Below are positions 37,245-64,000 of a stretch of 64,000 nt of DNA, piece after piece. The notes beneath the pieces are model-generated. The model was not told where the DNA came from. It made no database searches and saw only the letters and a program-made list of their open reading frames with translations. The first letter of the stretch is position 1, and every line of letters begins with the position of its first letter. This DNA comes from Lytechinus pictus (taxonomy: Eukaryota): NCBI RefSeq assembly GCF_037042905.1, contig NC_087251.1, forward strand, positions 32,180,001-32,244,000, read 5' to 3'. The translations under genes were made by a program, and so were the position numbers.

Positions 37245-40200
37245 CTCGGTGTCTAGAGAAGATAGATGTGAAAATAGAAGAATGTCTATATTTATGAAAA
37301 TAAAACAAGTACGTCATTGACATCGACATGTCTCTTCATTTATATTAAAACATATAAAATATTAATCATTAATTTTAAGCAGTGTATCCATGAGTTTATG
37401 AAAAGCCCAATAAACACACTGTATTCTGCATCTCTTGTTATCTTTTGAGAGATAAGGCTATACTTAAATATTATTATTAATATTATTCTAACGGTTAATA
37501 CACAACATTTTTTTAATCAATTGAAGCGTAGATCTCACCTGTAACTTGCAAATTTCAATTATTTCTCCAAGTTTCATCTACCGTTTCAAATTTCCAACTT
37601 TGACTTCCTCTACAAAATACAGGGTCCTTTAATAAATAACAGAGTTTTTAGATAGTAAATAAAAATAAAATTGAAGTGAACAATATCCGTCATGTCAATG
37701 TTCATCCAGGCTCGCATAACAGCACGATCATTCGTTCCCGTTGGTTGATAGATTCTGACTGATACATCATCAAACAGAAAATTGAGTTTGATTAAACTTA
37801 TGTTTTACAATTACAATGGAAAAATCTAACAGCTGCACAGAGATTAATTGAAAATTAAAACAATGATGAATAGTGTCCTCGGTTAGCGTTGAATTGAAAT
37901 ATGAAATACTCTTTCCGTCCTTTGTCTTTACCACTATCGATTCTACGATTGATTTTTTGAGGAGAATATAGGCTGTCTGATTTACCAAGTGTGATCCACA
38001 GACAAAAAGACATCTATTACTATTATTATATAGGAGCGCCTTGAGCACAAATCCTATATTATAATTTATTAGATATTAGTAATGCCTAATTAGAATACGA
38101 CTCTATTGTGTAATGTTGCTAGAACACTAAGCTTATGATAATGCAGTTCTTAGTAATATAGGCTTATTATTTCGTCTCTCTCTACCACAGACCTTAAATC
38201 AATCTCAAAATACAAATTTCGACATTTTTATTACAAAAATCTAATTTTGTAATTAAAATGTCATTATATCCAGAAAATAATATAATGTTTCACCCTTCTC
38301 GGGTTTTTTTTTTTTTGGGGGGTGGGGGCGGGGGGAGCAAAAGCTCCACCATCTGGACGCCACTGCCACTGTTTGTTTTGTTTCTTAATTAGACGAAAAA
38401 TATATTTTGTTTCCTAGACGAAAGTTATGGCTCATTACTACATGTATATATTTTTGTTGTGTTTCTAAGACAAAGTTTGTAACTGAAATTAAAGGCAGAT
38501 TCACACATTATTCTGCGCAATTTGTTCCCGATACACCTCAGCTTTTATCCTTTGCAAAATGTAATTTATTAGGTTAAAACTCTCCCGTTGAAATAAAGAA
38601 GGAAATTAGACCAAATACAGTAAGACAAACAAGACGAAGGAAATAAGCGAAACAGAGAGGATTATTAGCAAACCATTTCAGAAAATGGAAAAAATTATTT
38701 TTTAGAGATGCTGAGGCGAAATGAAGAGGGAAGGGGGTGAAGGGTGAAGGAAGGAATGAAGGAAGGAAGGGAAGAAAGAAAGACAGGGAGGAAACCTCAC
38801 TAGAGGTATATATAGAGGGGGAAAGGGAGGCATATATGCAGAAGGAAAGTGCTGTGTCGTACGGAGGTAGAGGGTTATTAGTGTATCATACTTTCATGTC
38901 CGGTGTTCGAAAGTCGATTTATGAATTTCCAAACAGGTTGATTTGAATGAAAAGAGGAAAATCAGACAAGCATACCGCTAAAAATAACTATATGGTCGAT
39001 GTCAAATATGAAATCAAAACACGTTTGATGATTGCGACCGAGATCTTTGGAAATTGTATTTTCTGGACCAACAGTCCTGCACTTAATTGCAGATAATATT
39101 AGTTTCAATTCGATGCACTTTATTTTCATCCTTTTGAAAGTGAGAGGCAAGAATTTGCACTTACAGACCAGGGGAGCGTTACATGAAAGGACTTAATTGT
39201 CGGACGTTTTATCTGACAAATAAAAAAAAAATTATGATTTAAAAAACCCATAAAGTTTATGGAAAGTTGCTGGTAGAATCCTGGTTTTATTTAATGCAGG
39301 TTTGCACTATTTGAATCGGTAGGACTGATGAAGATCAATTCCAGCAACAATTAAATGCACAATAACAAACAACGTATATAGGATGTCAAAGGCAAAGAAG
39401 CGTAGCAGACGATATTAATATGTCGGGCTTTACATAAATTAACTTACGCAACATACATGTTATGAATAGCTCGTTTCGCACGTGTATCTCCAGCTGAGAG
39501 ACTGGTACAAAATCTCCAGCGTTGATCACCGCATGCTTTAGTGCGTACAGAGGCAGAGATAGTAATATGATTATACCAGTCTTTATCATTATGTAACTTC
39601 GATTTTATAACCAGGGAAGTCCTATTGTCGGAGTAGAACTGACGAGCTTGACTGTAAACGCTTGACCAAACTGACCAGAGCAACTATAGCAGACGTGTGA
39701 AGTGAATGCTTACGAACGGTAGTTCAGCTGTGGTGGATTCCTTCCCAAAACCAGAGGTAAGTGTTATAAATGTTGCTATTTCATTTTCGATTTCTTCACT
39801 TAGCTTAATATGTTTTTTCTTATGATTTTTATTCTTATAAATGATGTGATCCGGGATGTGATGCTGCAATGTATGATTTTATTTATCACGAAATCAAAGA
39901 GCAGAATATACCGGGGATATACAGTACCCTTCCATATATGTTTGCATGGAACTATATTATATAAATGTATATATACGTTGATTACTATTCTCTCGATCTG
40001 CCAACTGATATCACGGGAAACTGTTCATTTTTGTCCACAATTTCGTGTAACATTCTTTCTTCAAACAGCATGAACTAACATTTGGAGTATTAATATGTCG
40101 GAAAGGGATAAAGCACGCCAACTAAAAAATTATTATGAACTAAGTGCCTTGGCTTTATGGCTTTTGAAAAAAAAAGTAAATAGCAATTATTAGAAGTTAT

Positions 40201-45296: not shown

Positions 45297-48079
45297 GAAG
45301 CAACCCAGATAATCTTTGCAATAACTTTACTCCTCTATGACGAAGTTTTGTCCTTCTTTATTTGTATGCTACTATGTTTTTCTGAAATGTACTTAAGATG
45401 ATTTTATCATCATTCCGTTTTTTGCATGTTGTTTATACTTGATAAGCATGAATTGATGTAATTATAAATATGATATGCAGTTATTCAGTATTCAAATTCG
45501 TGTTTTTTCTTGAATCAATATACGGTGCTTTTTTCAACATTGTGTGTAAATCGATTTAATACGCACGTTTACTTAAGTAAAATAATATTTATATATCATG
45601 CATGTAATATGACTCAATGTAGGCCGACTTATATCTTGAATTCTGATGTATGAATTTATTACGTGTTACTTTGTGATGAGGGAGCAGAGACTTAAATATG
45701 TCTTCCATACTTCACTGTTCACGTGATTCACTGTGTTATACTGTAAATATATTTATAAATGAATATTTGCATGACATAATGCTTGCAGTGTAATTATTTA
45801 ATCACACACTAACAACTCGAACATTAATTCAAAATTCCAGACATGTTTGCATACGGGCACCTATTTTCACTATCAGTGAAGAGTACACGACCCGGTACAC
45901 GATGACTGGAATATGAGCTTATAATGAGAGAGAGAGAGAGAAAGGGGAATGATAAACAATTTGGTAACATAGATTTATATGAAGTTCGCGGGGTCAGTGA
46001 GAGGAGGAAGGAGTGGAAAGTAGTATTGAAGAGGGAGTAGAAGGGGGGGGGTGAGGGAGTGAGGTTGATCGATTCATGGATGTAGTAGAGACATGATGAA
46101 TTGTGACTTGTTATAGAAGGTATAGGAGAGACGGGATTAAGAGATGGGGGTGAGAACGAGAGGGAGAGGGGGGGAGTGGCGAAGAAGGTCATGAAATAGA
46201 AAACGGGTAAAATGCATGCACATATTTTTTTGGAAACTTACAAGAATAGCGTGATTTGTTAGTCAGATTATCAATGTATAAGACTCTGACCAACAGGGCC
46301 AGGTCGTACGGTATAGTACGTAGCCCGACTTCCTTGTCTATCGATATCTCACTGATCGCAAATGATCAGAGGAGCGTTTCATCAACATAATCATGTTATT
46401 CGATAAGTTGCCACATCTGACAACTTTCATTGATTTTGTGTGGCTATCAAGCATATTTTCTATGGTCGCATTTCCTTTATGGTAATTGTTAAAATAAAAT
46501 AAAAACTTTGTCGAATGAAACATCCGACTATAGTTATTTGATGAAACGCTCCCGGGTGAGACGGTTATTACGAAAGAAAAGTCATCTTCTTTATTTGGGT
46601 ACATGGCATTGTAAGTATATACTGCTGTGTTTTCACATAATTACTTTTTTCAGTTTTTCTGAACAGTGCTTTTTAGTCGCAACTGGCACAGAGCAAAATT
46701 TGCAGTTGATGTCAGCGTAATCAGCCAAAAATTTGGACCTCTTCTAGACAAAAAAAAAGAAGAAGCTAATTTCATGATAGATTTTTACACAATATATATT
46801 CAGAAAATGATACCCCTTTTGATCACCCCTTTTCCTTTCCTTTTCTTTCTTTTTCACCCTTTTTTCTAGGTCGTATTTTTTTTTTTTTTATTATTATTAT
46901 TATTTTTTTTTTTTTTGGGGGGGGGGGGTCCATGGCCCCTACCCCCTATACCAAAATAATATTATTAAACATCTAGTAGAAGATATTCAACAAATAAGTG
47001 ATATTCATTTGAAAAATGTACTAGGGGTCAATTCAACTCCAAAAAGTGTTATGAAGAAAAATAACAATGATAGAGGCAAATTAGGTGAATAAATGCTTGC
47101 AAAAAAAAAATCATTCGAAAGTTGACATTTTGAGACGACTTTTTTCTCCCCCCCCCCCCCTCTCTCTCTCTCTTTCATCTTTTTTTGTTGGTCGTATTTT
47201 ATTCGGGGGGGGGGGTGTCTATCTATCTATCTATCTATCTATATATATGTATACAGGCTCCTGTACAGAATTCGAAATACGACCCCCCCCCCTCCCACGA
47301 GGGCGCCCATGGCTGGACGTGATGGAGCAAAGGGGAATCTCCAGCACTGTTAAATTACATATCATTGGCCAAAAACAGAAAAGTGCGTAATAGGTGCTAA
47401 CAGAAATCAATATAAATAGATAAAAGAAAGGAGAGATAGAGAGAGTTTTACTAATAAAAAAGGGAAAACGCTGAAATTATACATTTTCAGCATCCAACCA
47501 CAGACAAACATGAATGTGGTGTCAATTATTTTGTACTTAGACTTCTAAATTTCTAAACTAAATTATCCAAGCAAATGAATAAAAAAATAACAAAACAAAA
47601 CAAATCTTTCAGACTAGGCTATATACAATATGTAGTTGAGATAATAACAACTAAAAATTAATACTTTTTGTGTAAAGGGTAGCCTTATTTATGTAAAAAG
47701 CCTTCTTTGTATCACAACATAAGAATGAAAAATCTAGAAAAATACATGCCGTATTTCTCAAAATGAAGAGTGAGATAGTTTGGTATAGAAGTTGTACAAA
47801 TTTTAGACATACTAGTTTTGATACCCCCCCCAAAAAAAAAAAAAAAAAAATCTAGAAATTTTGACTCAATAATGGATTTGAGGCCGATTTGAGGTTACTA
47901 ACTTTAATCGCGACTTTACATGATTGTTAATTGAATGGTATAAAACTATTCTGCTTACGTAATTCATCATAATATTAAAAATAATGTTTTTAACCAAAAT
48001 ATAATTTTGATCAATGAAACCTTTTGTAGGTATATAGTGATAACTTTTAACAAATTTGAGCTAGAATCAATTTAATTAA

Positions 48080-48663
48080 AGGAGTATGAAACTCTTGGAG
48101 CAAGTTAGCTTTTGTGAAAGCAGAAAAATCAAAGAATAAGATCAACAAAAGTTTGAGTAAAATAGGACTAGCAATAGAAGAGTTATGAGCATTTGAATGT
48201 CGAGATCACTAATGCTATGGAGATCCTCCTCTTGGCAATGCGACCAAGATCTATGATGTCACAGATGAACAACTCTCCCCTTTTGGACACTGAAAATATA
48301 CCCCAAAACATCTCTTTTTGCTCATTCTAATCATATGACAAACGATTCATCAATGATATAATGTTGTGAAACCTCTGTACTTGTCCTCTCATAAAGAGAA
48401 CACATCACCTTGTGATAGACTCTATAAAAATGAGAATATAAGTGAAATAAGTACTAAAGTAATGAGGGAGTTGTACGTGTGTGACATCACAGATCTTGGT
48501 CGCATTGCCAATGGGAGGATCTACATGGCATTAGTGATCTCAATATTCAAATGCTCATAACTTTCTTATTATTCATTCAATCTTCCTCAAACTTTCAACA
48601 ATATGTTTCTTTGATTTTTCTCTTTGATATGGATTCAGCTGGTTTCAAGGGTTTCATTCTCCT
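48080..48663. mobile_element. Palindromic TTAA-flanked MITE (Kolobok-like)
   Basis: TTAA|AGGAGTATGAAAC ... GTTTCATTCTCCT|TTAA; internal inverted repeat GAGATCACTAATGC...GATGTCACA / TGTGACATC...GCATTAGTGATCTC. Confidence 0.85.
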
Positions 48664-49227
48664 TTAAGAAATAGTTTTTTGGGGGTCATTGTCATGGGAA
48701 ATATAAAAATCTTTTTAGTTTTTATACTTTCATCCTGTTTTTATGAGATTGAGATCATAATTTGAATACCAACTTTCAATAATCCTGATATAGAGATATA
48801 TAGCAAAATGAGATATAATATTATCAGTAGAACTATATATCTTCTCCTTCTTTTTTCGTCTTTGGGTCCGGCTTTGGGTATACTGCCCAATGCTCCACAA
48901 TGGGAGCCAATCGGGCAGAAAGTGCACTGATGTTGATGGCGCGGAGAGAAAATATACATTTTAGTCCTGCTATGCTTTGCATAATTAATTTGAAGTACAT
49001 GTACGTTTCGCTTGAAGGTTTCGGTGCCTTTGATTTCAATGGTTGGGGTGTGAGAGAGTTTTAGTCTGGGACCCTGGGATGGGTCTTGGGATGAATGAAT
49101 ACGTGTAGCAGTTTTTTTTTGGTGGAGATGGGGATGAAGCTAATTTGTAGGCCTACCCTGATTTTTATCTCTGTGGCCCATGCCTTCTTCTTTTTTTTAT
49201 ACTAGCAGACGACGAAGAGCAGTAAAT

Positions 49228-52200
49228 CAAGGCCCTATATAAACAAGGTTGCGACAACAGGGGTCAAAGGTCAAATTTGAAGGATCTCGAATAGTTCCAA
49301 CCGGGCCTTTTTGTCGACTGCTGCCATTGGAAATGCGTGCAAATTTTTGAATCATTTTTTATAATTATATCGGAAATCGACGTTAGAAATTCATTTTTAC
49401 ACTGCACATCCATATCAATATATTAGCGACCACATAAATTTATCAAATTTGTACAATCTTATAACAAAATCCGTGAAATATCGTTGATTTGAAAAATGGC
49501 AACCGAGTTCGTCGCAAGCCGCAAATGCTCACTGCTGCTGGTAGCGAGCGGGACGCTGCACTAATTTTCCCCGGAACTGTCGGGCTGGATGTAAGGTTCT
49601 GCTGGCCCCCCACGGGTCGTTTGGAGAGCGAGAGGTAAGTATGTACCGGAATGTCATGTGGTGCCATAAATACTAGTTTCATGTCCTAAATTCTTATTGT
49701 AGATTTTGCGCCGTTGTAAATTTAGCTGAATTTGATTTTTTTTACTAGAGTAGGCCCTACTCAAAAACATGAATGATTTGAGCATATCTTTGTGCTTGTC
49801 TTTAGTTTGAGTTTGACTGAGTGGGCCCTTAAGGCTTAATTTATTTATTTTTTATTTTATTTCTGATATTTAACATGTTTGAATAGGCCACAGGGCGGCA
49901 CATATCATCAACTTGGTGGTTTTCCATGTGGCCCTATTAACAAAAAGTACAGCAAAAAATGTTACTAGATCTATTAATAATACCAAATAGATCTAACGTT
50001 AGATCTACTAGTACTAGATCTACATCAGTACATGCAGTGAGTTGAAATAAACATGACAAAATGTACAGGCAAAAAATGTATGCAAACATGTTATAAGAAA
50101 GATTATTGGTATCCTTAATTGGGAATTTGTTCATTTAATATTAAAATCAACTATGACAATTTGAATCAAGCTTGTGAATTTAGATTTTGAAGATGAAACA
50201 TATATTGCCTATTAATTGATGGAAAGTGAGATAAGTGCTGTGCAGAATGCAGATATTCAATTCTACTAACCTTATTTTTAATAAGAACAAAACTAATTTC
50301 AAGAATTCAATTCATTTTGGGGGCTTGGGGCCAATGCATAAAATGAATTTACAACCAGGACTGTACCATATAGTAAAGTGCTTTATCCAGTTTAGATCAA
50401 AAGAACATAAAAAAAGAAAGTAAATATTTATTCATTTCAATCACCACACAGCAAAAGGTTTACAGGATAACGTTAGGTTACTTGTATAAAATTTTACATT
50501 GGATAAGTGGTCTTGTCAGTTGTCACCAGAATAAGGCTAGTGCCAGTTTCCCCTTATATTCCTATCGCTACAGAATTTTTCATAGCGTTCTTAATATTTC
50601 TACCCTTTATGCCCTGTAAAAACATACCATGGTGTTCTTTGGATTTTATACCATTTCAATGCCTTACATACATGTACCTCGTTGCTCTCGAGATCAACAT
50701 GCTTTATTTTATTTTCATATATGATACAGGCCAGGGTTATCCTTATAGTTGCCACCGTGATGTAAAATTATTCCGAAGGAAAGTGAAATACCCAAGTAGG
50801 CCTAGTACAGTACTAGACCAAAAGCTTTAGTGTCTGTATTTGGTTGTTTTGCTGAACTGTGTTGGCTTTTCTCACTTAGTAAAATCCCTAGAAATGGTTA
50901 TTCCTGTCTAGCCTAGTTCCAATTTGGCTATAAACTCTTTGTTGTGTACTGGGTGAGTTCAATTCTCACGAGGCATATTCGAACATCATTGACCACCAAG
51001 TCTATGATAACCCTAAATGCTTTCATGGTGTCAGTACATGGACAAATGAGTTTAGTAATCCAGTTGGTTTGCATGTAGCTTCCTTTTTTTTTTAAATATT
51101 ACTTTCATTTCTGCACTGCCAATACTTTGCACATTTTCTAGACCAAAAATCTTCAATCTCTGTACCATCTCAGATGTTGTTCTGGAAGTTTCCATGGCAA
51201 AAAAGAATAGTGTAGAAAAAAACATCTGAGATAGTGTAGTAGGTTTCATGGTCATCATGTATCTTTCTTGGGCAAATGTTGGTCCTGAAAAGGACCACCC
51301 AATCTTGACGTTGCGACAAGTGTGTTCTTGTCGTCCTACTCATGCCTTGTGTACTGAAAGCCCTCTCGCTCAGACAGCAAGTATTGTATGTGCTAGTCCT
51401 TACGTGGAGCCACACTTACAACAAGTTTCATTCGGTCTGTGCCTGCAGACTAAACTAATGTGGCCATGGCACCTCCTCACCCATCCAATGCCATATAAAG
51501 TTCATATTGGCATTAAAATGTATTTGCTTAATAAAACAACCTCTTTACAACTATCTAAATTAACGCATGATCCAACTATATTATCATTACATGTACACTA
51601 AATATGAAATAAAAGAAACAATAGGTAGAGAGTGAGAGATTGACCCTCATTTTATGCTGTTGCCACCAATGAAAGTTCTTAATTTAAATTTGGAACTTCA
51701 TGAGAGTCGAACTCATCCAACATTGCACAAAATGCGGTCAGAAGACAGGCGGAATGATACATGATGAAAGATTTAAAGGAGAACATTTCAAGCAAATAAG
51801 AAAGATTGACTGCACAATGTAGCCCTACATGTATGTTATATAATCACATCTTATTAAAATCATGATGAAAATCAAACAATCATACTTACACAGCTTACTG
51901 GCTTATCCAGTAGTTCCTCTCATCCAAAACAGATCAATCGGCAGCAATTACATGTAGGGCCTATTTTATTTTCCACAATCAAATTGAAAAAAAAATCTAC
52001 ATTTAGATCTAACTTAGATAAGTTTGGTGCATCAATGATTATCTTGTCAACTAAGCACGTATTATCATTGGCTTTTGTAATAAAGTTATCACACCATACA
52101 TATCAACAGAGTAGAGGTCTACATGTGCATGTATGCTAAATTAGGCCTTTAAAGTTTCTTTGAAAACTACAAAGAATTGATTTTAATTCCAAACCATTTC

Positions 52201-54110
52201 AAATTACTTGGCCTAGTCGAAGAAATTTTTGGTCTAGATACCCAACCTGTCCGGACATGCAACTAGTGGTATGATAGGGGCACTTGTCCAATACTACAAG
52301 GTTGTGATAACATCCATGTGGTCTTAAACCACTTTTAAAAAATGCAGTGCTAAGCTAACACCACTTTTATCACAAGGTTGTGATAACCTTGTCCACAGTT
52401 AGTAACCTGTGTGGTGAACAAGATTGTCTTGAATCTTGAAGAAGTACTTTTTGAGTGTCAACAAGATTGTCAATTTTCTCTTGATCTAGACTGGATGAAT
52501 ACTTGATCAACAGTCAATTTTGACCATACAGTGAATTCATCATCATAAAAAAATGCCTTGGCACAAAACTAAATTGAATTCTTGAAATTTATAATTTTTT
52601 TTCTAATTAAAAAGAGATTAAAAAGAGAGTCTGTGGAGATGAAGATCTGCATCAGTCACAGAGAGCCTCACAAAAATATGCTCAAAATTAAAAGTTTTTG
52701 AGCGCTCTTGTGAATAAAAAAAAAAGATTTCTAAGTCTAGAATGAAAACAAATAACTGAATGGATCTGTCTTTTTGAGTGTGCATTGTACATGAATGTTG
52801 CATAGACTCAAGACATAAAGAGTGGTTGGAGAGTGCAAGAGGATGGGGTGCTTCCACTCTTCCCGCAATTCGACAAATTTTTACTTTTTCCAGGAAAGGT
52901 TCCAGAAATGAAAAAAATTCCAGGAAATTCAGGGAAATCCACAAATTACAAGGGGGGCCCCTTGAGAAGCAAAATTTAAAATTGTAATGTAGAAATGCAG
53001 AAGTGTGCCCCCCCCCCCTTTGAACGTGAAGTCCCTTTTATTTTTGCATGTCAATTTTTTCCTCAGGAAAATGTGCCTCCCCTTTTGGAAAATCCTGGAT
53101 CCGCCCATGATTACAATTAAATGACAATTTACCGTAGCAACTTTAAAATATTCATGTAATATTTTACAAAGATTTAGATCTTCCTCCGGATCCAGACATA
53201 GGCTCCGTCGTCGGAGCTCAAAATTTTCTGCGCTCGTCATTTCGTAATTTTGTTCCTATTTTTCAAGAGGACATGATGAACAAAAATGTTTTATTTCTTG
53301 ATTTTGGTCACTTCTTGGACCAAATTTAGGCTCACTGTATTAATTATTATTGCCAGATTTTCATTAAAAATCAAAATGGAAAATTCCAGGGATTGTCTAT
53401 GAATTTCAGAAAATTTGGGATTCATTTTCAGGAAATTTGTTTTAGATCTGTGGAACATTGATGAGGGGTTTGGTGTCCGGACACTGAAAAATAAAGCCTT
53501 GTATTTGTAGAAGTTTAGGCTTGCTGTTGTTTATCTCACTTGTTTGTTTTTTTATTTTATCTCAAATTCTCACTTCTCAGCAAAATAAAGCAAAAAATAT
53601 AGCTTGAATAATGCTTATCACCATCATTATTTGTTCTTTATAATATTTTCTTACATTCTGAGCTAAAAAAAATCAAAGACATTGCTTGTATTTTTTGTAA
53701 ACTTTTCAAAATTAAAGGAGATGTCGTGAGTCCGGACGGCCCAACCCGTCAGGAAACACAACCACAGCGTATATCGGGCTACTGAGCCAGCCGCACTGCC
53801 GGCTACAGTTGCCAGTCCCATACCGTATCTTTACTGTCATGTTTACGCCTTGGAACTATTAAAAATTAGTAAAAAAGCATGTTAAAATTCAAAATTATTG
53901 CAAACCAATCATATCAAAATGAAGGACATAAAATTCTCTTTAAAAACTATCATTTTGTTTTTATCAATAACAATTTCAATTACCTGAAATTTGCTGTCGA
54001 AAAATCTCCCCCATTGACTTTGTACACAAACTTCGGTGAGTTTGGAACTATTCAAAAGCTCCATGAGCAAATGACGGCAACTTCCGGTGTCGCAACCTTG
54101 TTTATATAGG
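49228..54110. mobile_element. Element A: 4.9-kb TIR DNA transposon (29-bp TIR), probably a decayed hAT
   Basis: Left TIR CAAGGCCCTATATAAACAAGGTTGCGACA (49228-49256). Right TIR TGTCGCAACCTTGTTTATATAGG (54088-54110) lacks its last 6 bp. Preceded by CAGTAAAT. Minus-strand LAHTILAV/SERAFSTQG remnant near 51310-51397. Confidence 0.85.
51310..51397 (-). pseudogene. Remnant resembling the hAT transposase C-terminal dimerisation domain
   Basis: Minus strand reads L-A-H-T-I-L-A-V, then after a frameshift S-E-R-A-F-S-T-Q-G-M-S-R-T-T-R-T-H-L, resembling LAxxxLxxPxSxxxxERxFSxxGxxxTxxRxxL. Confidence 0.45.
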
Positions 54111-54584
54111 TAGGCACTTATGATCCAAGTTTGAAAGGAGACTCGTAAAATGACGTCACTCTCGCCGATGAATATTCATTAGATCGTGGTCGTGCGTGTT
54201 CAATACACACTGCGTGCAGGCATGCAGATAGTTATATGCGAGGAACTTTGGCTCAAGTTGTCAAATAACGTGTGTGTGTGTGCGCGTGTGTGTATCATCG
54301 GCTGGTAGTATTCCATGCTGTCTAAGACTTCAAACGCGTCGGAGAGAGTGCATGGCAATTCGGTAAAACGAAGTTTCCGATATAAAGAGATAATAAAATA
54401 ACACTATGTACAGTACGTTGAGAGGCAAATGTCAGATCAGGGAGGCAGGAGTACAATCAGGTTTTTTTTTAAAGGGAAGAATAGTGTAAAATAAAAGGTA
54501 TTATATATATAGCCAAATGGTCTAGGTGAGGGAAGTGAACAATGATGTTTTTTTAAAAAAAGAATGAATATACCTTACCTGAAT

Positions 54585-57433
54585 ATTATGGTGAAGCCAA
54601 TTTAAAAGGAGGTGAGACAAGTTTCAATGGAGGTTTAAAAAAATAATAAACTGTATTATGGTGAAGCCAATTTAAAAGGAGGTGAGGCAAGTTTCAATGG
54701 AGGTTTAAAAAAAAAAAAACTATACTAAGAATTATGGTGAAGCCAATTTAAAAGGAGGTGAGGCAAGTTTCAATGGAGGTTTTTAAAAAGAATAAACTGT
54801 ACTACAAATTATGGTGAAGCCAATTTAAAAGGAGGTGAGGCAAGTTTCAATTGAGGTTTTTAAAAAGAATAAACTACAACAAATTTAAAAGGAGGCGAGG
54901 CAAGTTTCAATGGAGGTTTTTAAAAAAGAATAAACTGTACTACAAATTATGGTGAAGCCAATTCAAAAGGAGGTGAGGCAAGTTTCAATGGAGGTTTTTA
55001 AAAAAGAATAAACTGTACTATACAAATTATGGTGAAGCCAATTCAAAAGGAGGTGAGGCAAGTTTCAATGGAGGTTTAAAAAAATAAACTGTATTATGGT
55101 GAAGCCAAATTAAAAGGAGGTGAGGCAAGTTTCAATGGAGGTTTTTAAAAAGAATAAACTGTATATGGTGAAGCCAATTTAAAAGGAGGTGAGGCAAGTT
55201 TCAATGGAGGTTTTTAAAAAGAATAAACTGTATATGGTGAAGCCAATTTGAAAGGAGGTGAGGCAAGTTTCAATGGAGGTTTTTAAAAAGAATAAACTGT
55301 ACTACAAATTTGAAAGGAGGCGACGCAAGTTTCATTAGAGGTTTTTAAAAAGAATAAACTGTACTACAAATTATGGTGAAGCCAATTTAAAAGGAGGTGA
55401 GGCAAGTTTCAATGGAAGTTTTTAAAAAAGAATAAACTGTACTACAAATTATGGTGAAGCCAATTTAAAAGGAGGTGAGGCAAGTTTCAATGAAGGTTTT
55501 TAAAAAGAATAAACTGTACTACAAATTATGGTGAAGCCAATTTAAAAGGAGGTGAGGCAAGTTTTAATGGAGGTTTTTAAAAAGAATAAACTGTATTATG
55601 GTGAAGCCAATTTAAAAGGAGGTGAGGCAAGTTTCAATGGAGGTTTTTAAAAAGAATAAACTGTATATGGTGAAGCCAATTTAAAAGGAGGTGAGGCAAG
55701 TTTCAATGGAGGTTTTTAAAAAGAATAAACTGTACTACAAATTATGGTGAAGCCAATTTAAAAGGAGGTGAGGCAAGTTTCAATGGAGGTTTTTAAAAAG
55801 AATAAACTGTATTATGGTGAAGCCAGTTTAAAAGGAGGTGAGGCAAGTTTCAATGGAAGTTTTTTAAAAAGAATAATTAAGTGTACTACAAATTTAAAAG
55901 GAGGCGACGCAAGTGTCAATGGAGGTTTTTAAAAAGAATAAACTGTACTACAAATTTAAAAGGAGGTGAGGCAAGTTTCAATGGAGGTTTTTAAAAAGAA
56001 TAAACTGTACTACAAATTATGGTGAAGCCAATTTAAAAGGAGGTGAGGCAAGTTTTAATGGAGGTTTTTAAAAAGAATAAACTGTATTATGGTGAAGCCA
56101 ATTTAAAAGGAGGTGAGGCAAGTTTCAATGGAGGTTTTTAAAAAGAATAAACTGTATATGGTGAAGCTATATTTAAAAGGAGGTGAGGCAAGTTTCAATG
56201 GAGGTTTTTAAAAAGAATAAACTGTACTACAAATTTAAAAGGAGGCGAGGCAAGTTTCAATGGAGGTTTTTAAAAAGAATAAACTGTACTACAAATTATG
56301 GTGAAGCCAATTTAAAAGGAGGTGAGGCAAGTTTTAATGGAGGTTTTTAAAAAGAATAAACTGTATTATGGTGAAGCCAATTTAAAAGGAGGTGAGGCAA
56401 GTTTCAATGGAGGTTTTTAAAAAGAATAAACTGTATATGGTGAAGCCAATTTAAAAGGAGGTGAGGCAAGTTTCAATGGAGGTTTTTAAAAAGAATAAAC
56501 TGTACTACAAATTATGGTGAAGCCAATTTAAAAGGAGGTGAGGCAAGTTTCAATGGAGGTTTTTAAAAAGAATAAACTGTATTATGGTGAAGCCAGTTTA
56601 AAAGGAGGTGAGGCAAGTTTCAATGGAAGTTTTTTAAAAAGAATAAAGTGTACTACAAATTTAAAAGGAGGCGACGCAAGTGTCAATGGAGGTTTTTAAA
56701 AAGAATAAACTGTACTACAAATTTAAAAGGAGGTGAGGCAAGTTTCAATGGAGGTTTTTAAAAAGAATAAACTGTACTACAAATTATGGTGAAGCCAATT
56801 TAAAAGGAGGTGAGGCAAGTTTTAATGGAGGTTTTTAAAAAGAATAAACTGTATTATGGTGAAGCCAATTTAAAAGGAGGTGAGGCAAGTTTCAATGGAG
56901 GTTTTTAAAAAGAATAAACTGTATATGGTGAAGCTATATTTAAAAGGAGGTGAGGCAAGTTTCAATGGAGGTTTTTAAAAAGAATAAACTGTACTACAAA
57001 TTTAAAAGGAGGCGAGGCAAGTTTCAATGGAGGTTTTTAAAAAGAATAAACTGTATATGGTGAAGCTATTTAAAAGGAGGTGAGGCAAGTTTCAATGGAG
57101 GTTTTTAAAAAGAATAAACTGTACTACAAATTTAAAAGGAGGCGAGGCAAGTTTCAATGGAGGTTTTTAAAAAGAATAAACTGTACTACAAATTATGGTG
57201 AAGCCAATTTAAAAGGAGGTGAGGCAAGTTTCAATGGAGGTTTTTAAAAAGAATAAACTGTATTACAAATTATGGTGAAGCCAATTTAAAAGGAGGTGAG
57301 GCAATTAGTTAATGGAGGTTTTTAAAAAGAATAAACTATATTACAAGTTATGGTGAAGGCAATTTGAGAGGAGGTAAGGCATGTCTACAATGATTTTTTT
57401 TTAAAGAATGATAAGTGTAGAATATAATTCAAA
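54585..57433 (+). repeat. Satellite array, left arm (77/70/69/62-bp monomer variants, about 40 units)
   Basis: Consensus AAATTATGGTGAAGCCAATTTAAAAGGAGGTGAGGCAAGTTTCAATGGAGGTTTTTAAAAAGAATAAACTGTACTAC. Confidence 0.97.
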
Positions 57434-58846
57434 TGATGAAGCCATCTTGAGAGGTGCATGAGGCAAGTCTACAATGAGGTTTCTAAAAACAATGAATAGT
57501 GAAGAAAAAGATCGCAATTGCTTTTAATAATCCACAAAATTGTTTAGTTATTTATTTCATGCAAATTGCTATTAATTGATTATGCTCATTTGTGCATAAT
57601 TAGTATACTATACCTATTCCTCTAACTCCCTAAATAAAGCTCCAAATGTTCTAATTTTTGGTTTAGAAACTCTTTGTGGTGTTCTTCGATAATGTATTTC
57701 TTGTGTTTTTACCTTTGTATTGCATTGTTTTTTTTCAACGATGCTCGGACTCTCGTAACAGCATAAAATAAATCAGTTTAGTTCAACAAAACTAAAAACA
57801 ATTAGGCATTCATGAATTTTGGTTGAAAACGCATATTCCATTGACGTGGTACATAAATATCACAATTTTGAGCCATTTTTGTCTGATATGCACTTACAAA
57901 TTGTTTGGTAATTTTCAGAACCCAGTACCCGGGCTTCGCAAAACTGGTCTCAAAACATGCAAAAGACTTTTTTTTTAAATCGCAGAGCTCAGAGCCCCCC
58001 CCCCCCCTGCGTAAATAGGTTAAGTTTGCATTAATTTTGAACTTTTCCATTCCCAAATACGTAATATCCCCTCCCCAAAAATGCAATTGTCACTGAAATG
58101 GAATATACATAATATATTTTTTAATAAGCCATGTTTTGCAAAATAATCATCATGTCATCCTTTGTCAACAAGAAATCTGTACATGTCCTCTGGAAGAAAA
58201 TAATACCTCGGCCGCCTATTAAATTCTAAGTTTTGATTTTGTAAGTATTTTACTTAGCAATTTGGCTGGCTTATCAAAATGCTTAAACTTGTATGCAGAT
58301 CAGATCTCAGAATTTACCTTATCCAAATTGAACTAAATACTAATACCCATTGTGATGTTATAAATTTTGAGCCAAATAGTGCCAAATGTGTGAATGTATT
58401 TCTGTGCGTATCATTTTTGTATATGTAGACTTAAGTCTAGTAGATGGCTGACTTACATTTAAGCAAAATATTTAGCCAAAAAAAATGCAATTGAATACCA
58501 AAGATGGATAAGTATTTTACTTTTGCAAAATACTGAGTAAAATATACTTGAAATTGTGGCTTTAAGAGTAGCATTGAATACCGGCCCTGTTCCTCATCAT
58601 CATTATCATCCCACTACTTGACTGAACCATATAGTATTAAACAAAGCTAATTCCACATGTTCAGGGAGGAATTAATCGTTGTATCACTTGACATTAAGGA
58701 GAAACTTAGAATATTTCATATTTCCTATAATAAAATACAAAAGAAATAGTGTGAGGATGACGTCATCAGTCTCCTCAGGTGCATACAGACCAGGATGTGC
58801 ATATAACTGTTTTTTTTAATTAAGCAAAACTTTAAAATGTCATAAC

Positions 58847-61122
58847 TTTGAATTATATTCTACACTTATCATTCTTTAAAAAAAAATCATTGTAGACATG
58901 CCTCACCTCCTCTCAAATTGCCTTCACCATAACTTGTAATACAGTTTATTCTTTTAAAAAACCTCCATTAACTAATTGCCTCACCTCCTTTTAAATTGGC
59001 TTCACCATAATTTGTAATACAGTTTATTCTTTTTAAAAACCTCCATTGAAACTTGCCTCACCTCCTTTTGAATTGGCTTCACCATAATTTGTAGTACAGT
59101 TTATTCTTTTAAAAAACCTCCATTGAAACTTGCCTCGCCTCCTTTTAAATTTGTAGTACAGTTTATTCTTTTTAAAAACCTCCATTGACACTTGCGTCGC
59201 CTCCTTTTAAATTTGTAGTACAGTTTATTCTTTTTAAAAACCTCCATTGAAACTTGCCTCGCCTCCTTTTAAATTTGTAGTACAGTTTATTCTTTTTAAA
59301 AACCTCCATTGAAACTTGCCTCACCTCCTTTTAAATTGGCTTCACCATAATTTGTAGTACAGTTTATTCTTTTTAAAAACCTCTATTGAAACTTGCGTCG
59401 CCTCCTTTTAAATTTGTAGTACAGTTTATTCTTTTTAAAAACCTCAATTGAAACTTGCCTCACCTCCTTTTAAATTGGCTTCACCATAATTTGTAGTACA
59501 GTTTATTCTTTTTAAAAACCTCCATTGAAACTTGCCTCACCTCCTTTTGAATTGGCTTCACCATAATTTGTAGTACAGTTTATTCTTTTTAAAAACCTCC
59601 ATTGACACTTGCCTCACCTCCTTTTGAATTGGCTTCACCATAATTTGTAGTACAGTTTATTCTTTTTAAAAACCTCTATTGAAACTTGCGTCGCCTCCTT
59701 TTAAATTTGTAGTACAGTTTATTCTTTTTAAAAACCTCCATTGAAACTTGCCTCACCTCCTTTTAAATTGGCTTCACCATAATTTGTAGTACAGTTTATT
59801 CTTTTTAAAAACCTCTATTGAAACTTGCGTCGCCTCCTTTTAAATTTGTAGTACAGTTTATTCTTTTTAAAAACCTCCATTGAAACTTGCCTCGCCTCCT
59901 TTTAAATTTGTAGTACAGTTTATTCTTTTTAAAAACCTCCATTGAAACTTGCCTCACCTCCTTTTAAATTGGCTTCACCATAATTTGTAGTACAGTTTAT
60001 TCTTTTTAAAAACCTCTATTGAAACTTGCGTCGCCTCCTTTTAAATTTGTAGTACATATTATTCTTTTTAAAAACCTCAATTGAAACTTGCCTCACCTCC
60101 TTTTAAATTGGCTTCACCATAATTTGTAGTACAGTTTATTCTTTTTAAAAACCTCCATTGAAACTTGCCTCACCTCCTTTTGAATTGGCTTCACCATAAT
60201 TTGTAGTACAGTTTATTCTTTTTTAAAAACCTCCATTGAAACTTGCCTCGCCTCCTTTTAAATTTGTAGTACAGTTTATTCTTTTTAAAAACCTCCATTG
60301 AAACTTGCCTCACCTCCTTTTGAATTGGCTTCACCATAATTTGTAGTACAGTTTATTCTTTTTAAAAACCTCCATTGACACTTGCGTCGCCTCCTTTTAA
60401 ATTTGTAGTACAGTTTATTCTTTTTAAAAACCTCCATTGAAACTTGCCTCGCCTCCTTTTAAATTTGTAGTACAGTTTATTCTTTTTAAAAACCTCCATT
60501 GAAACTTGCCTCACCTCCTTTTAAATTGGCTTCACCATAATTTGTAGTACAGTTTATTCTTTTTAAAAACCTCTATTATTGAAACTTGCGTCGCCTCCTT
60601 TTAAATTTGTAGTACATATTATTCTTTTTAAAAACCTCAATTGAAACTTGCCTCACCTCCTTTTAAATTGGCTTCACCATAATTTGTAGTACAGTTTATT
60701 CTTTTTAAAAACCTCCATTGAAACTTGCCTCACCTCCTTTTGAATTGGCTTCACCATAATTTGTAGTACAGTTTATTCTTTTTAAAAACCTCCATTGAAA
60801 CTTGCCTCGCCTCCTTTTAAATTTGTAGTACAGTTTATTCTTTTTAAAAACCTCAATTGAAACTTGCCTCACCTCCTTTTAAATTGGCTTCACCATAATT
60901 TGTAGTACAGTTTATTCTTTTTAAAAACCTCCATTGAAACTTGCCTCACCTCCTTTTAAATTGGCTTCACCATAATTCTTAGTATAGTTTTTTTTTTTTT
61001 AAACCTCCATTGAATCTTGCCTCACCTCCTTTTAAATTGGCTTCACCATAATACAGTTTATTATTTTTTAAAACCTCCATTGAAACTTGTCTCACCTCCT
61101 TTTAAATTGGCTTCACCATAAT
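58847..61122 (-). repeat. Satellite array, right arm (inverted; mainly 77/62-bp variants, about 32 units)
   Basis: Reverse complement of the left-arm monomer. Confidence 0.97.
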
Positions 61123-61203
61123 ATTCAAGTAAGGTATATTCATTCTTTTTTTAAAAACATCATTGTTCACTTCCCTCACCTATAGATCATTTGGCTATAT
61201 ATA

Positions 61204-62944
61204 CAGTGCGTCCCAAAAAAAACTATACACTTTTGAAATGGCTGCCAAATAAAAAGTATATCACTTTGGGGGGAAAGACTTATACATATGGAAAGCCGAT
61301 AAAGTCATCTTTCAAATTACACCAAAATGTTGGAAAACTATTCATGCTTGAGTGAGCACTACCCGCTTAAACAAAGGGTATGAAAATTAGGGTGGGCAGG
61401 AATTAGCCTTTCGGTTTCTTTCAGTTTTTGAGAGGCGAATCCCTTGGAACTTGCAAACTTGAGGGTGTTCTGATGAATTGATGGTCATTCATTATCAATT
61501 TAAATTGTTAGAGCAAATTTCATGAATTATCAAATTGAAATTCCATGCATGAGTAAGCATGAATTGCAATCTTTAGTGAAGCATTTTACTTACAATGTGG
61601 GTCTCAGCAGTGTGTTCATTGGAGTCAGGAGAATAGGAGTAAGAAATGACTTCAGTGTGTGAAGTAAGCTGATGGGAAAAGGGTCAACAGAACGTTTAGC
61701 CTCCCTCCTACAGGTCCGTCCCTCCCCCCTCCTGTTGAGATTGAGACTGATTGCTATTACATGTACGCATTAAGTGCAAAGCGGACTGTCAATTTGATAA
61801 TAAATTCTGAAAATTAGATCATCAACTTTTATCTATCAATCATTCAATCAACAATCTGTTAGTAAATAAACTCAATCAAATATTCACCTTTTTCAATACA
61901 TTATCAATCAAACATTCAGCTTTTTCAATAAATGATTTCATAAATTATCATAATTAGTCAAGTTCTTAATAAATCATTCAATGGAAAAGAAAGACCCATC
62001 AACCATCAGTCACTTGGCATTTTAAGTTTTAAATACCAACCAAGAGAAAGAAAGGGGTGGAGGGCGGGGTGAGTACATGACATGTAATTTGTAAGAGAAC
62101 ACAAAGAAGAATGCCCCTTTAACCCAGTCTTACCCTATCTCATCCCCTTGCATGTAACACCATCACATTACTCTGACTCTCACAAGCACACTTGCTAAGA
62201 TCCACATAATAAACGAAAAATGCTACACTAAAATTACAATTCCTGTTTACTCATGCATTACATTTCAATTTAGTAACTCGTGAAATTTGCTTAAGAAACC
62301 AAAACGGATCTCCATTTATCAGTAATTTAGCATAACACCCTTAACTTTGCAAGTTCCAAAGGACTCACCTCAAAAAAAAAATGGAATTAAGGCTAATTCC
62401 TGCTCACCCTAGCAAAGGCTAGTCTCTCAGGAGGGGTGAAAGGGGTAGAGAGAGAGAGGGGGGGGGGTTATAAGTGTTCTGTTGACCCATATCCCGTCAA
62501 CCTACTTCCCCCACCTAAGTCCTATCCATATTCTGACTTCCATGAACACATTGCTGAGATCCACTTAAAAAGTGAAAAATTGTATTTCATGTTCACTCAT
62601 ACATTAAATTTCAATTTAATAATTCTTAAAATTTGCTCTAAAAACCTAAATTGATAATGCTTGATCATTGATTTATCAAAACATCCTCAACTTTGCAAGT
62701 TCCAAGGGACTCGCATCTCAAAAACTGAAAGAAATTGGAAGGCTAATTCCTGCCCACCCTAATTTCCATACCCTTTGTTTTAGTGGGCAGTGCTCGCTCA
62801 AGCATGAAAAGTTTTCCAACTTTTTGGTGTCATTTTAAAGTTGACTTTATAGGCTTCCATGTATGTAAGTCTTTTCCCCCAAAGTGATATACTTTTTATT
62901 TGGCAGCCATTTCAAAAGTGTATAGTTTTTTTTGGGACGCACTG
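61204..62944. mobile_element. Non-autonomous Tc1/mariner-type element nested in the right arm of element B
   Basis: TA|CAGTGCGTCCCAAAAAAAACTATACACTTTTGAAATGGCTGCC ... GGCAGCCATTTCAAAAGTGTATAGTTTTTTTTGGGACGCACTG|TA; imperfect TIRs longer than 250 bp; empty site in the left arm at about 54503. Confidence 0.92.
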
Positions 62945-63374
62945 TATAATACCTTTTATTTTACACTATTCTTCCCTTTAAAAAAAAACCTGATTGTACT
63001 CCTGCCTCCCCTGATCTGACATTTGCCTCTCAACGTACTGTACATAGTGTTATTTTATTATCTCTTTATATCGGAAACTTCGTTTTACCGAATTGCCATG
63101 CACTCTCTCCGACGCGTTTGAAGTCTTAGACAGCATGGAATACTACCAGCCGATGATACACACACGCACACACACACACGTTATTTGACAACTTGTCTCT
63201 GGAGCCAAAGTTCCTCGCATATAACTATCTGCATGCCTGCACGCAGTGTGTATTGAACACGCACGACCACGATCTAATGAATATTCATCGGCGAGAGTGA
63301 CGTCATTTTACGAGTCTCCTTTCAAACTTGGATCATAAGTGCCTACCCGGTTTATATAGGGCCTTGCAGTAAAT

Positions 63375-64000
63375 CAAGGCCCTATATAAACAAGGTTGCG
63401 ACACCGGAAGTAGCCGTCATTTGCTCATGGAGCTTTTGATTAGTTCCAAATTCACCGAAGTTTGTGTACAAAGTCAATGGGGGAGATTTTTCGACAGCAA
63501 ATTTCAGGTAATAACAATTGTTATTAAGAAAAACAAAAGGATAGTTTTTAAAGAGAATTTTATGTGCTTCATTTTGATATGATTGGTTTGCAATAATTTT
63601 GAATTTTAACATGCTTTTTTACTAATTTTTAATAGTTCCAAGGCGTAAACATGACAGTAAAGATACGGTATGGGACTGGCAACTGTAGCCGGCAGTGCGG
63701 CTGGCTCAGTAGCCCGATATACGCTGTGGTTGTGTTTCCTGACGGGTTGGGTCCGGACTCACGACATCTCCTTTAATTTTGAAAAGTTTACAAAAAATAC
63801 AAGCAATGTCTTTGATTTTTTTTTTAGCTCAGAATGTAAGAAAATATTATAAAGAACAAATAATGATGGTGATAAGCATTATCCAAGCTATATTTTTTGC
63901 TTTATTTTGCTGAGAAGTGAGATAAAATAAAAAAAATGAAAAAAAGTCAGTGAGATAAACAACAGCAAGCCTAAACTTAGAAATACAAGGCTTCATTTTT
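63375..64000. mobile_element. Element A': second, inverted copy of element A (right end first), truncated by the window edge
   Basis: Begins with the full TIR CAAGGCCCTATATAAACAAGGTTGCGACA and is the reverse complement of about 53487-54110, with scattered substitutions and small indels. Confidence 0.9.

What the first reader, a model, noticed from the sequence alone, without database searches (positions are those of the whole stretch)
54111..63366. Foldback element with satellite-filled arms that uses the termini of a probable hAT transposon
Seen: about 470 bp of unique outer arm, then 2.3-2.9 kb of 62-77-bp tandem repeats, inverted around a 1.4-kb non-coding spacer; the terminal 17 bp are identical to element A. 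Known: foldback elements with tandem repeats in their TIRs include sea urchin TU elements and Drosophila FB and Galileo (the last a P-superfamily element). Inference: B is a non-autonomous passenger of the element A transposase and a vehicle that disperses a satellite. A hAT-driven foldback family of this form may be undescribed.
Basis: partly seen in the sequence, partly recalled or inferred. Interest (0 to 1): 0.75.

Follow-up and report, generated by a model that had tools for sequence, protein, structure and literature searches.

The report
Foldback transposon nested in another's tip
A 9-kb gene-less, mirror-image jumping element with satellite-filled arms sits inside the tip of a second transposon in a sea urchin genome, so the end it seemed to share belongs to that second element; it was likely moved by a Merlin-type enzyme and is a new example of a known design.

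Summary
The foldback (B) is real, but it does not use element A's termini. B spans 54109-63347 and has its own ends (GGTAGGCAC...GTGCCTACC, a perfect 146-bp inverted match). It sits inside A's right 29-bp TIR, between two copies of GTTTATATA, with two extra bases at the right junction. The 'shared' 17 bp are the displaced tip of A's own TIR and occur on one side only; A (49228-63366) is flanked by an 8-bp TSD. In four public runs, contigs of B's end stop at 63346-63348 and run into other flanks, and one contig shows A's end intact without B. B has no coding sequence. Its GGTA start and 8-9-bp duplication fit Merlin best (zebrafish Merlin-2_DR has 79-bp arrays near both ends); MULE/Rehavkus is the rival. 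A looks more P-like than hAT-like. A 1.74-kb TA-flanked element, not in the finding, interrupts B's right arm. The two arrays match at their edges and differ in the middle. This scan has noted similar satellite-armed foldbacks elsewhere in this genome. One oddity remains: the duplication starts exactly 17 bp from A's tip, the P-element cut depth. Verdict: new member of a known kind; interest 0.25.

The parts
49220..49227 (.). Left copy of element A1's 8-bp target site duplication (CAGTAAAT)
   Evidence: identical to 63367-63374
49228..54108 (+). Element A1, non-coding body: left 29-bp TIR 49228-49256, 12-bp subterminal inverted repeat at 62 and 64 bases from the tips, inner 21 bp of the right TIR at 54088-54108
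   Evidence: 54 reading frames of 40 aa or more gave no Pfam match at cut-off; covered by many contigs in public runs
54100..54108 (.). Left copy of the 9-bp duplication flanking B (GTTTATATA), part of A's TIR
   Evidence: repeated at 63350-63358; chance about 2e-5 at a fixed place
54109..63347 (.). Foldback element B, 9239 bp (7496 bp without the nested element), ends GGTAGGCAC / GTGCCTACC
   Evidence: perfect 146-bp inverted match from these two positions; contigs of other copies stop at 63346-63348
54109..54583 (+). Left outer arm of B; the inner part is made of decayed monomers
   Evidence: 468 of 470 aligned bases match the right arm; decayed-monomer scores above all of 300 shuffles for 54340-54510 and 54510-54583
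54584..57439 (+). Left tandem array, units of 60-80 bp, with a higher-order repeat of about 770 bp
57440..58839 (.). Central non-coding spacer, 1.4 kb; the first ~70 bp are one more decayed monomer
58840..61123 (-). Right tandem array, mostly 62- and 77-bp units
61124..63347 (-). Right outer arm of B, in two pieces (61124-61203 and 62945-63347) around the nested element
61204..62944 (.). Nested 1741-bp non-coding element, CAGTG...CACTG ends, TA duplication, ~490-bp arms 83-86% alike; Tc1/mariner-like (label recalled)
   Evidence: removing it and one TA restores the left arm's sequence at that place without a gap
63348..63349 (.). Two extra bases (CG) between B's right end and the duplicated target; unexplained
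   Evidence: no listed contig of another copy extends over them
63350..63366 (+). Displaced outer 17 bp of A1's right TIR; the first 9 bp are the right copy of the duplication
63367..63374 (.). Right copy of A1's 8-bp TSD, also the spacer between A1 and A2
63375..64000 (-). Second A copy (A2), inverted, right end first, running off the window
   Evidence: 602 matches and 20 mismatches against A1's re-joined right end

Best explanation
B is a gene-less foldback element with its own GG...CC ends that sits inside the right terminal repeat of element A; it was likely cut and pasted there by a Merlin-type transposase encoded elsewhere in the genome. Shown: B's ends, the 9-bp duplication of A's TIR sequence around it, A's own 8-bp TSD outside, the later insertion of a TA-flanked element into B's right arm, and decayed monomers at both edges of the arrays. 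Inferred: the arrays grew from a short stretch of the arm and then gained and lost units separately in each arm (slippage or unequal exchange); the insertion split A1's right TIR and probably fixed A1 in place; the two extra bases are a junction repair product or donor-flank remnant. The transposase was not found.
For: Perfect 146-bp inverted match 54109/63347 and the direct repeat at 54100/63350. With these ends the smallest-filler register is a 9-bp duplication plus 2 extra bases; 8 bp plus 3 extra also fits. In one search, 9 of 27 listed contig pieces end at 63346-63348, none listed crosses into 63350, 10 contigs in 4 loose-end rows leave the reference at 63347-63348 into other letters, and summed depth falls from 1e5-2e5 to 17-151 (X2, X5) and from about 60-260 to 0 (X16, X15); a 786-bp contig of X1 runs through A's end into GCCTTG and another flank. 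Merlin: TIRs start GG, TSD 8 or 9 bp (PMC8101967); 12 of 12 family ends seen in its S3 Appendix start GG plus a pyrimidine, 9 of 12 GG(C/T)A, 3 of 12 GGTA like B; Merlin-2_DR has 79-bp arrays at 847-1832 and 12117-12880 and a DDE domain; Merlin-related proteins are listed for Strongylocentrotus purpuratus; the host is close to Lytechinus.
Against: No transposase is linked to these ends (no genome), so the superfamily rests on four terminal bases and a duplication length that MULEs share. The duplication is not flush: 2-3 extra bases need a second event. Most Merlin TSDs in that paper are 8 bp, while 9 bp is the more economical register here. The 3.3-kb arms exceed the 24-462 bp first given for Merlin. 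No other B copy was seen with both ends and its own TSD; contigs are short, 204 of 231 pieces were not shown, and no run holds half of the query's words. Summed depth is no copy number.
Confidence: 0.6

Rival explanations
1. Same anatomy and same nested insertion, but the mover is a Mutator-superfamily (MULE/Rehavkus) transposase, as proposed for Tetris.
For: 9 bp is the most economical duplication; Rehavkus TSD is 9 bp (PMC6446971 Table 1); Rehavkus elements carry satellite arrays in their inverted ends (10.1101/2024.12.02.626372); most foldbacks seem to be Mutator and Tetris has 8-10-bp TSDs (PMC4079207).
Against: Most arthropod MULE TIRs have G/C in the first three bases (PMC13359780), B has GGT; Rehavkus is listed for arthropods and annelids only; B's first four bases match published Merlin ends.
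Confidence: 0.22
2. B's junction was made or reshaped at a break cut by A's own, P-type transposase. A staggered cut at A's right end would leave two complementary 17-base overhangs; B was joined between them (or the cut hit the junction after B landed), so the apparent TSD is a trimmed and a full copy of the overhang, with GG microhomology on the left and CG filler on the right.
For: Both copies of the direct repeat begin exactly 17 bases from A's tip, the depth at which Drosophila P transposase cuts (PMC7776569). The left junction has 2 bases that fit both elements and the right has 2 that fit neither. A has P-like ends, and contigs in X5 and X2 show what reads as a scar of two joined A TIR stubs.
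Against: A's cut depth is unknown; the scar shows only stubs of 14 bases or more, at one locus, from 8 loose letters. Given an insertion inside the TIR, landing within one base of position 17 has a chance of roughly 1 in 7 (my estimate). Capture of a whole excised element needs two rare events in one nucleus (inference). A 9-bp duplication with intact ends is what plain transposition gives.
Confidence: 0.12
3. One reading: B carries A's termini and is moved by A's (hAT) transposase.
For: The 17-mer next to B's right end is identical to A's tip. The composite A1+B still has a left TIR, 17 bp of a right TIR and an exact 8-bp TSD, so passive carriage inside A is not strictly excluded.
Against: No such 17-mer at B's left end; the 8-bp TSD flanks A1, not B; other B ends do not run into the 17-mer; an A end without B exists; A's subterminal repeat is now 9.2 kb from the displaced tip; A is not shown to be hAT.
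Confidence: 0.02

Closest known systems
Zebrafish Repbase Merlins with arrays near both ends: Merlin-2_DR, Merlin-N5_DR (PMC8101967; passages, S1 Table part 1 of 2, passages of S1 and S3 Appendix)
   Same: GG start, 8-9-bp duplication; tandem arrays some hundred bases inside both ends with unequal copy numbers (Merlin-2_DR: 79-bp unit, 12.5 and 9.7 copies; Merlin-N5_DR: 113-bp unit, no transposase)
   Different: B has longer arrays (38 and 30 units), no transposase, a non-flush right junction; no sequence comparison with the Repbase entries was possible
Tetris foldback transposon and TIR-220 satellite, Drosophila virilis (PMC4079207; passages and section 19)
   Same: outer flanking domain, tandem domain, inner domain, non-coding middle; repeat related to the flanking domain; TSD 8-10 bp; transposase unknown
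   Different: unit 62-77 bp against 220 bp; Tetris was assigned to Mutator on TSD length; escape of B's repeat into free satellite is not shown
Rehavkus (MULE-related) elements of Tribolium (10.1101/2024.12.02.626372, passages; PMC6446971, passages)
   Same: satellite arrays of up to about 50 units in long inverted ends; 9-bp TSD
   Different: not listed for echinoderms in that table; B's terminal bases fit Merlin better; no transposase to compare
Galileo, P superfamily (PMC4168063, passages)
   Same: a 9-kb transposase-less copy with tandem repeats and nested elements inside kilobase TIRs
   Different: Galileo has 7-8-bp TSDs and P-type ends; here the P-like element is the target (A), not the foldback
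TU elements of Strongylocentrotus purpuratus (Lieberman et al. 1983, seen only as a citation in PMC4079207; structure recalled)
   Same: sea urchin foldback with modular, repeat-bearing inverted arms
   Different: recalled: much shorter repeats in the outermost domain; sequence not available here (one search found no paper), so family identity is untested
Drosophila P element, for element A (PMC7776569, passages)
   Same: about 30-bp TIR, 11-12-bp subterminal inverted repeat, 8-bp TSD, unlike left and right interiors, TIR stubs at a likely scar
   Different: no THAP or transposase remnant in A; the subterminal repeat lies at nearly equal distance from both tips

Membership tests
   17-mer only at the right; best left match 9 of 17
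   CAGTAAAT flanks A1 (49220, 63367); B is flanked by a duplication of A's TIR sequence
   contigs of 4 runs stop or diverge at 63346-63348; none listed crosses into 63350 (27 of 231 pieces listed)
Foldback structural class (Tetris-type) | long modular TIRs with outer, tandem and inner domains around a non-coding middle | tested here: met
   against PMC4079207
Foldback structural class (Tetris-type) | TSD of 8-10 bp | tested here: met
   9 bp with 2 extra bases, or 8 bp with 3
Merlin superfamily | TIRs start 5'-GG | tested here: met
   both ends GGTAGG; end position backed by contigs; feature from PMC8101967
Merlin superfamily | TSD of 8 or 9 bp | tested here: met
   one locus only, with extra bases at the right junction
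Merlin superfamily | TIR length 24-462 bp (first description); about 1 kb in two zebrafish entries | tested here: inconclusive
   outer arm 475 bp, whole arm about 3.3 kb; S1 Table lists 1000 for Merlin-1_DR and Merlin-N5_DR
Merlin superfamily | DDE_Tnp_IS1595 transposase in the element or in a partner with the same ends | not testable with these tools
   none in B; no genome; pattern scans of metagenome, viral and prokaryote collections found no copy
MULE / Rehavkus | 9-bp TSD and long TIRs with tandem repeats | tested here: met
MULE / Rehavkus | G/C in the first three terminal bases (trend in arthropod MULEs) | tested here: not met
   B starts GGT; PMC13359780 passage; a trend, not a rule
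MULE / Rehavkus | MULE DDE transposase partner | not testable with these tools
P superfamily (element A) | about 31-bp TIR, subterminal inverted repeat, 8-bp TSD | tested here: met
   29 bp, 12 bp at offsets 62/64 (a shared word of 9 or more in 9 of 300 shuffles), 8 bp (PMC7776569)
P superfamily (element A) | cut inside the TIR, leaving TIR stubs at donor sites | tested here: inconclusive
   one scar-like junction in X5 and X2; could be an assembly or library artefact at a palindrome
P superfamily (element A) | THAP-domain transposase | not testable with these tools
   no remnant in 54 frames of A; no genome
hAT superfamily (element A) | 8-bp TSD and CA-type start (recalled) | tested here: met
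   shared with P, so not diagnostic
hAT superfamily (element A) | hAT transposase; no TIR stubs left on excision (recalled) | tested here: inconclusive
   no protein; the scar-like contigs argue against
Sea urchin TU elements | sequence homology to TU inverted-repeat domains | not testable with these tools
   no sequence or paper available

The most novel reading that the evidence does not exclude
A whole foldback transposon was joined into the 17-base staggered break cut by an unrelated P-type transposase at its own element's tip, so that a repair junction mimics a 9-bp TSD: one transposon's cut serving as another's landing site, which would also mean that TSD length can misassign foldbacks.
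Probability: 0.12. Interest if true: 0.55.

Novelty: new member of a known kind. Interest (0 to 1): 0.25.

Why it matters
As it stands it is a clean four-layer nest (two A copies tail to tail, B in A1's tip, a TA element in B's arm) and a caution that a 'shared terminus' can be the target's displaced end. It adds a sea urchin case of Merlin-like ends around satellite arrays, and shows arrays turning over inside arms whose unique parts differ by 2 substitutions in 470 bases, which makes array turnover measurable across copies. If the 17-base coincidence is causal, it would show one transposase's break capturing another element.

Tried and rejected
No genome was held, so copy counts, TSDs of other B copies and a partner transposase could not be sought. 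Exact-pattern scans for B's end in metagenome, viral and prokaryote collections and for A's end in viral and metagenome collections: 0 matches each. Rfam on 48000-64000: 0 matches at E up to 1. Pfam on 87 of 87 frames of 40 aa or more in A, B's left outer arm, the spacer and the nested element: 3 weak matches, all below cut-off; the arrays and B's right outer arm were not scanned. Look-ups of earlier findings by sequence or look-alike stretch found nothing. Folding of B's end, the monomer and A's end: none better than shuffles. No word of 8 or more shared between B's first 122 bp and the monomer, and none of 9 between A's ends and B's end or monomer, so no sign that the monomer repeats a terminal binding site; 54109-54340 gave only a borderline monomer score (2 of 300 shuffles). 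A 7-base word shared between B's end and two Monocercomonoides Merlin ends was judged within chance and not used. A possible piggyBac-like end in the spacer has no partner. Registers with a 10- or 11-bp duplication were rejected because they cut into the perfect inverted match and the contig ends. Of 24 runs listed 5 were laid (X1, X2, X5, X15, X16); all are contigs, none holds half of the query's words, none shows this junction or its empty site, and parts without cover prove nothing. Paper searches with no or no useful result; 10.1101/2021.09.26.461848 (passages) gave nothing on ends.
Full report
Setting. No genome was held for this window. A single-exon RING/B-box protein of the window falls in a 90%-identity cluster whose other 2 of 3 members are named Lytechinus variegatus and L. 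pictus proteins, so the host is a sea urchin in or close to Lytechinus. The finding lies about 9 kb beyond the last recognised exon of an FG-GAP/ASPIC-domain gene.

Observation. The foldback is real. The outer arms align with 468 matches, 2 mismatches and five small internal indels once a 1741-bp element at 61204-62944 is taken out of the right arm; that element has CAGTG...CACTG ends and a TA duplication, and the left arm serves as its empty site. The arrays lie at 54584-57439 and 58840-61123 in opposite orientation, with 38 and 30 units counted between anchors. The spacer is 1.4 kb. Rfam gave 0 matches on 48000-64000 and Pfam 3 weak matches below cut-off among 87 frames.

The ends. The 17-mer occurs three times in the window: 49228, 63350-63366 (minus strand) and 63375. 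It is absent from B's left end (best match 9 of 17). A perfect 146-bp inverted match runs from 54109 and 63347. Left of 54109 lie the inner 21 bp of A's right TIR, ending in GTTTATATA; right of 63347 come CG, then GTTTATATA again, then the last 8 bp of the TIR. Taking out B and one copy of the 9-mer restores an end identical over the 37 bases printed to the start of a second, inverted A copy at 63375. CAGTAAAT flanks 49228 and 63366. So A1 is 49228-63366 with its own 8-bp TSD, and B lies inside its right TIR. The chance of the 9-mer at a fixed place is about 2e-5. With GG...CC ends the registers are 9 bp plus 2 extra bases or 8 bp plus 3.

Other copies. The run search listed 24 runs, none with half of the words; 5 were laid, all as contigs. 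On 49100-54575 a 786-bp contig of X1 follows A to 54110 and runs on into GCCTTG and a different flank: an intact A end with no B. On 63280-63425 summed depth over B's end reaches about 2e5 in X2 and X5, 260 in X16 and 77 in X15, and over the displaced 17 bp falls to 17-43, 60-151, 0 and 0. Of 27 pieces listed (204 not shown), 9 end at 63346-63348 and none crosses into 63350; 10 contigs in 4 loose-end rows leave at 63347-63348 into other letters. In X16 the piece of depth 60 ends at 63347 and the branch with one more C has depth 14.5, about what a random flank gives. This places the family end at 63347 and shows that B-type ends do not carry A's tip. The tool warns that summed depth is no copy number; I use only its shape. 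The first ~100 bp of the arm are covered much more deeply than the rest (X2: 145,926 against 1,894 and 861), which suggests, as inference, shorter relatives with the same ends. No contig links both ends of another copy, so their TSDs are untested, and this junction and its empty site were not seen.

The arrays. The outer 5 and inner 3 units match between the arms, the middles do not: 14 of 31 middle units on the left are of the 69/70-bp class against 0 of 23 on the right; several variants are private to one arm; the left has a higher-order repeat of about 770 bp (757 of 779 columns alike), the right an exact 240-bp repeat 1190 bp apart. Decayed units continue outward (54340-54583) and inward (57350-57520), scoring above all 300 shuffles in four stretches, while 54430-54510 alone (16 of 300) and the rest of the spacer (105 of 300) do not. 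The repeat therefore likely grew from the arm itself, as proposed for Tetris (PMC4079207 section 19). No shared word of 8 or more links the monomer to the terminal 122 bp, so extra transposase binding sites are not supported. The monomer occurs nowhere else in the window; dispersal as free satellite is untested.

Which enzyme. B encodes none. Merlin TIRs start GG and make 8- or 9-bp TSDs (PMC8101967, passages). Among 12 family ends visible in its S3 Appendix, 12 start GG plus a pyrimidine, 9 start GG(C/T)A and 3 start GGTA as B does (one further Monocercomonoides family was not looked up, and the figure with TIR logos is not held). Its S1 Table (part 1 of 2) lists Merlin-2_DR with 79-bp arrays at 847-1832 and 12117-12880 and a conserved DDE domain, and its S1 Appendix lists Merlin-related proteins of S. 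purpuratus. Against this, 9 bp is also the Rehavkus length (PMC6446971, passages), Rehavkus elements carry satellites in their ends (10.1101/2024.12.02.626372, passages; its supplementary figures could not be seen), and Tetris was assigned to Mutator. Arthropod MULE ends are mostly G/C in the first three bases (PMC13359780, passages), which B is not. I put Merlin at about 0.6 and MULE at about 0.2. An unreviewed-type note of this scan (e1-9207697) reports a 1.9-kb Merlin-type foldback with 78-bp repeats and an 8-bp TSD in the same genome; it moved me from MULE towards Merlin, but I could not check that it is the same family.

Element A. It has 29-bp TIRs, an 8-bp TSD, unlike interiors at the two ends and a 12-bp subterminal inverted repeat 62 and 64 bases from the tips (a shared word of 9 or more arose in 9 of 300 shuffles), close to the P design of 31-bp TIR, 11-bp subterminal repeat and 8-bp TSD (PMC7776569, passages). 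A contig in X5 and one in X2 cover 63353 onward, and in X5 the 8 letters before it continue as the opposite TIR stub, which reads as a palindromic excision scar; hAT elements do not leave TIR stubs (recalled). This is one locus and could be an artefact. A is thus more likely P than hAT, but unassigned without a transposase.

The oddity. P transposase cuts 17 bp inside its TIR, and both copies of the duplication start exactly 17 bases from A's tip; the left junction has two bases that fit both elements and the right two that fit neither. A break cut by A's enzyme could give this pattern. A's cut depth is unknown, the position can be chance (about 1 in 7 within the TIR, my estimate), and capture needs two rare events together, so I give it 0.12.

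Order of events. Shown by nesting: A1 before B, B before the TA element. A2 shares the 8-bp target with A1 tail to tail; its timing relative to B is not known. Inferred: B split A1's TIR and left the tip 9.2 kb from its subterminal repeat, which probably immobilised A1.

Novelty. The design is published for Tetris, Rehavkus, Galileo (PMC4168063, passages) and zebrafish Merlins, and this scan has noted several satellite-armed foldbacks in this genome. I found no paper on this family (searches), but Repbase and Dfam were not available and TU elements were seen only as a citation. New member of a known kind; interest 0.25.

Noticed in passing
window 49220-64000: Two A copies lie tail to tail around one copy of the 8-bp target (63367-63374); before B landed they would have formed a near-perfect inverted repeat of 626 bp or more (602 matches, 20 mismatches), and B sits within 17 bp of the spacer.
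   Followed up: partly
loose ends before 63373 (X5) and 63374 (X16): Two of four flanks seen at A-family ends in other runs hold the same 10-mer, CGTAGAGGGC, ending 16 bases before the element, with different bases next to it (counted by eye); the X1 and X2 flanks lack it. Possible target motif for A; its likeness to a CTCF site is recalled only.
   Followed up: no
contigs from 63353 in X5 and X2: A palindromic junction of two A TIR stubs next to another A end, seen in two runs of different studies: a likely P-type excision scar.
   Followed up: partly
window 61204-62944: TA-flanked 1741-bp element whose arms are identical for the first 69 bp and 83-86% alike over 490 bp, with a third, decayed part-copy of the arm at 62169-62411.
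   Followed up: partly
window 50747-50929, 51113-51478, 52577-53125, 53309-53491: Parts of A's interior are covered far more deeply than their neighbours in X2 and X16, suggesting further small repeats nested in or captured by A.
   Followed up: no
window 54109-54211: B's first ~100 bp are covered about 75 times more deeply in X2 than the next bin, with 5 contigs leaving at 54211: probably an abundant short relative with the same ends.
   Followed up: partly
window 35361-37313 (-): Single-exon RING/B-box (TRIM-like) reading frame of 627 aa from the first Met, lying opposite to and between an FTHFS-domain gene and an FG-GAP/ASPIC-domain gene.
   Followed up: partly
window 13260-13791, 48076-48667: Two further short inverted-repeat elements (about 530 bp at 75% and 590 bp at 78% self-complementarity).
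   Followed up: no
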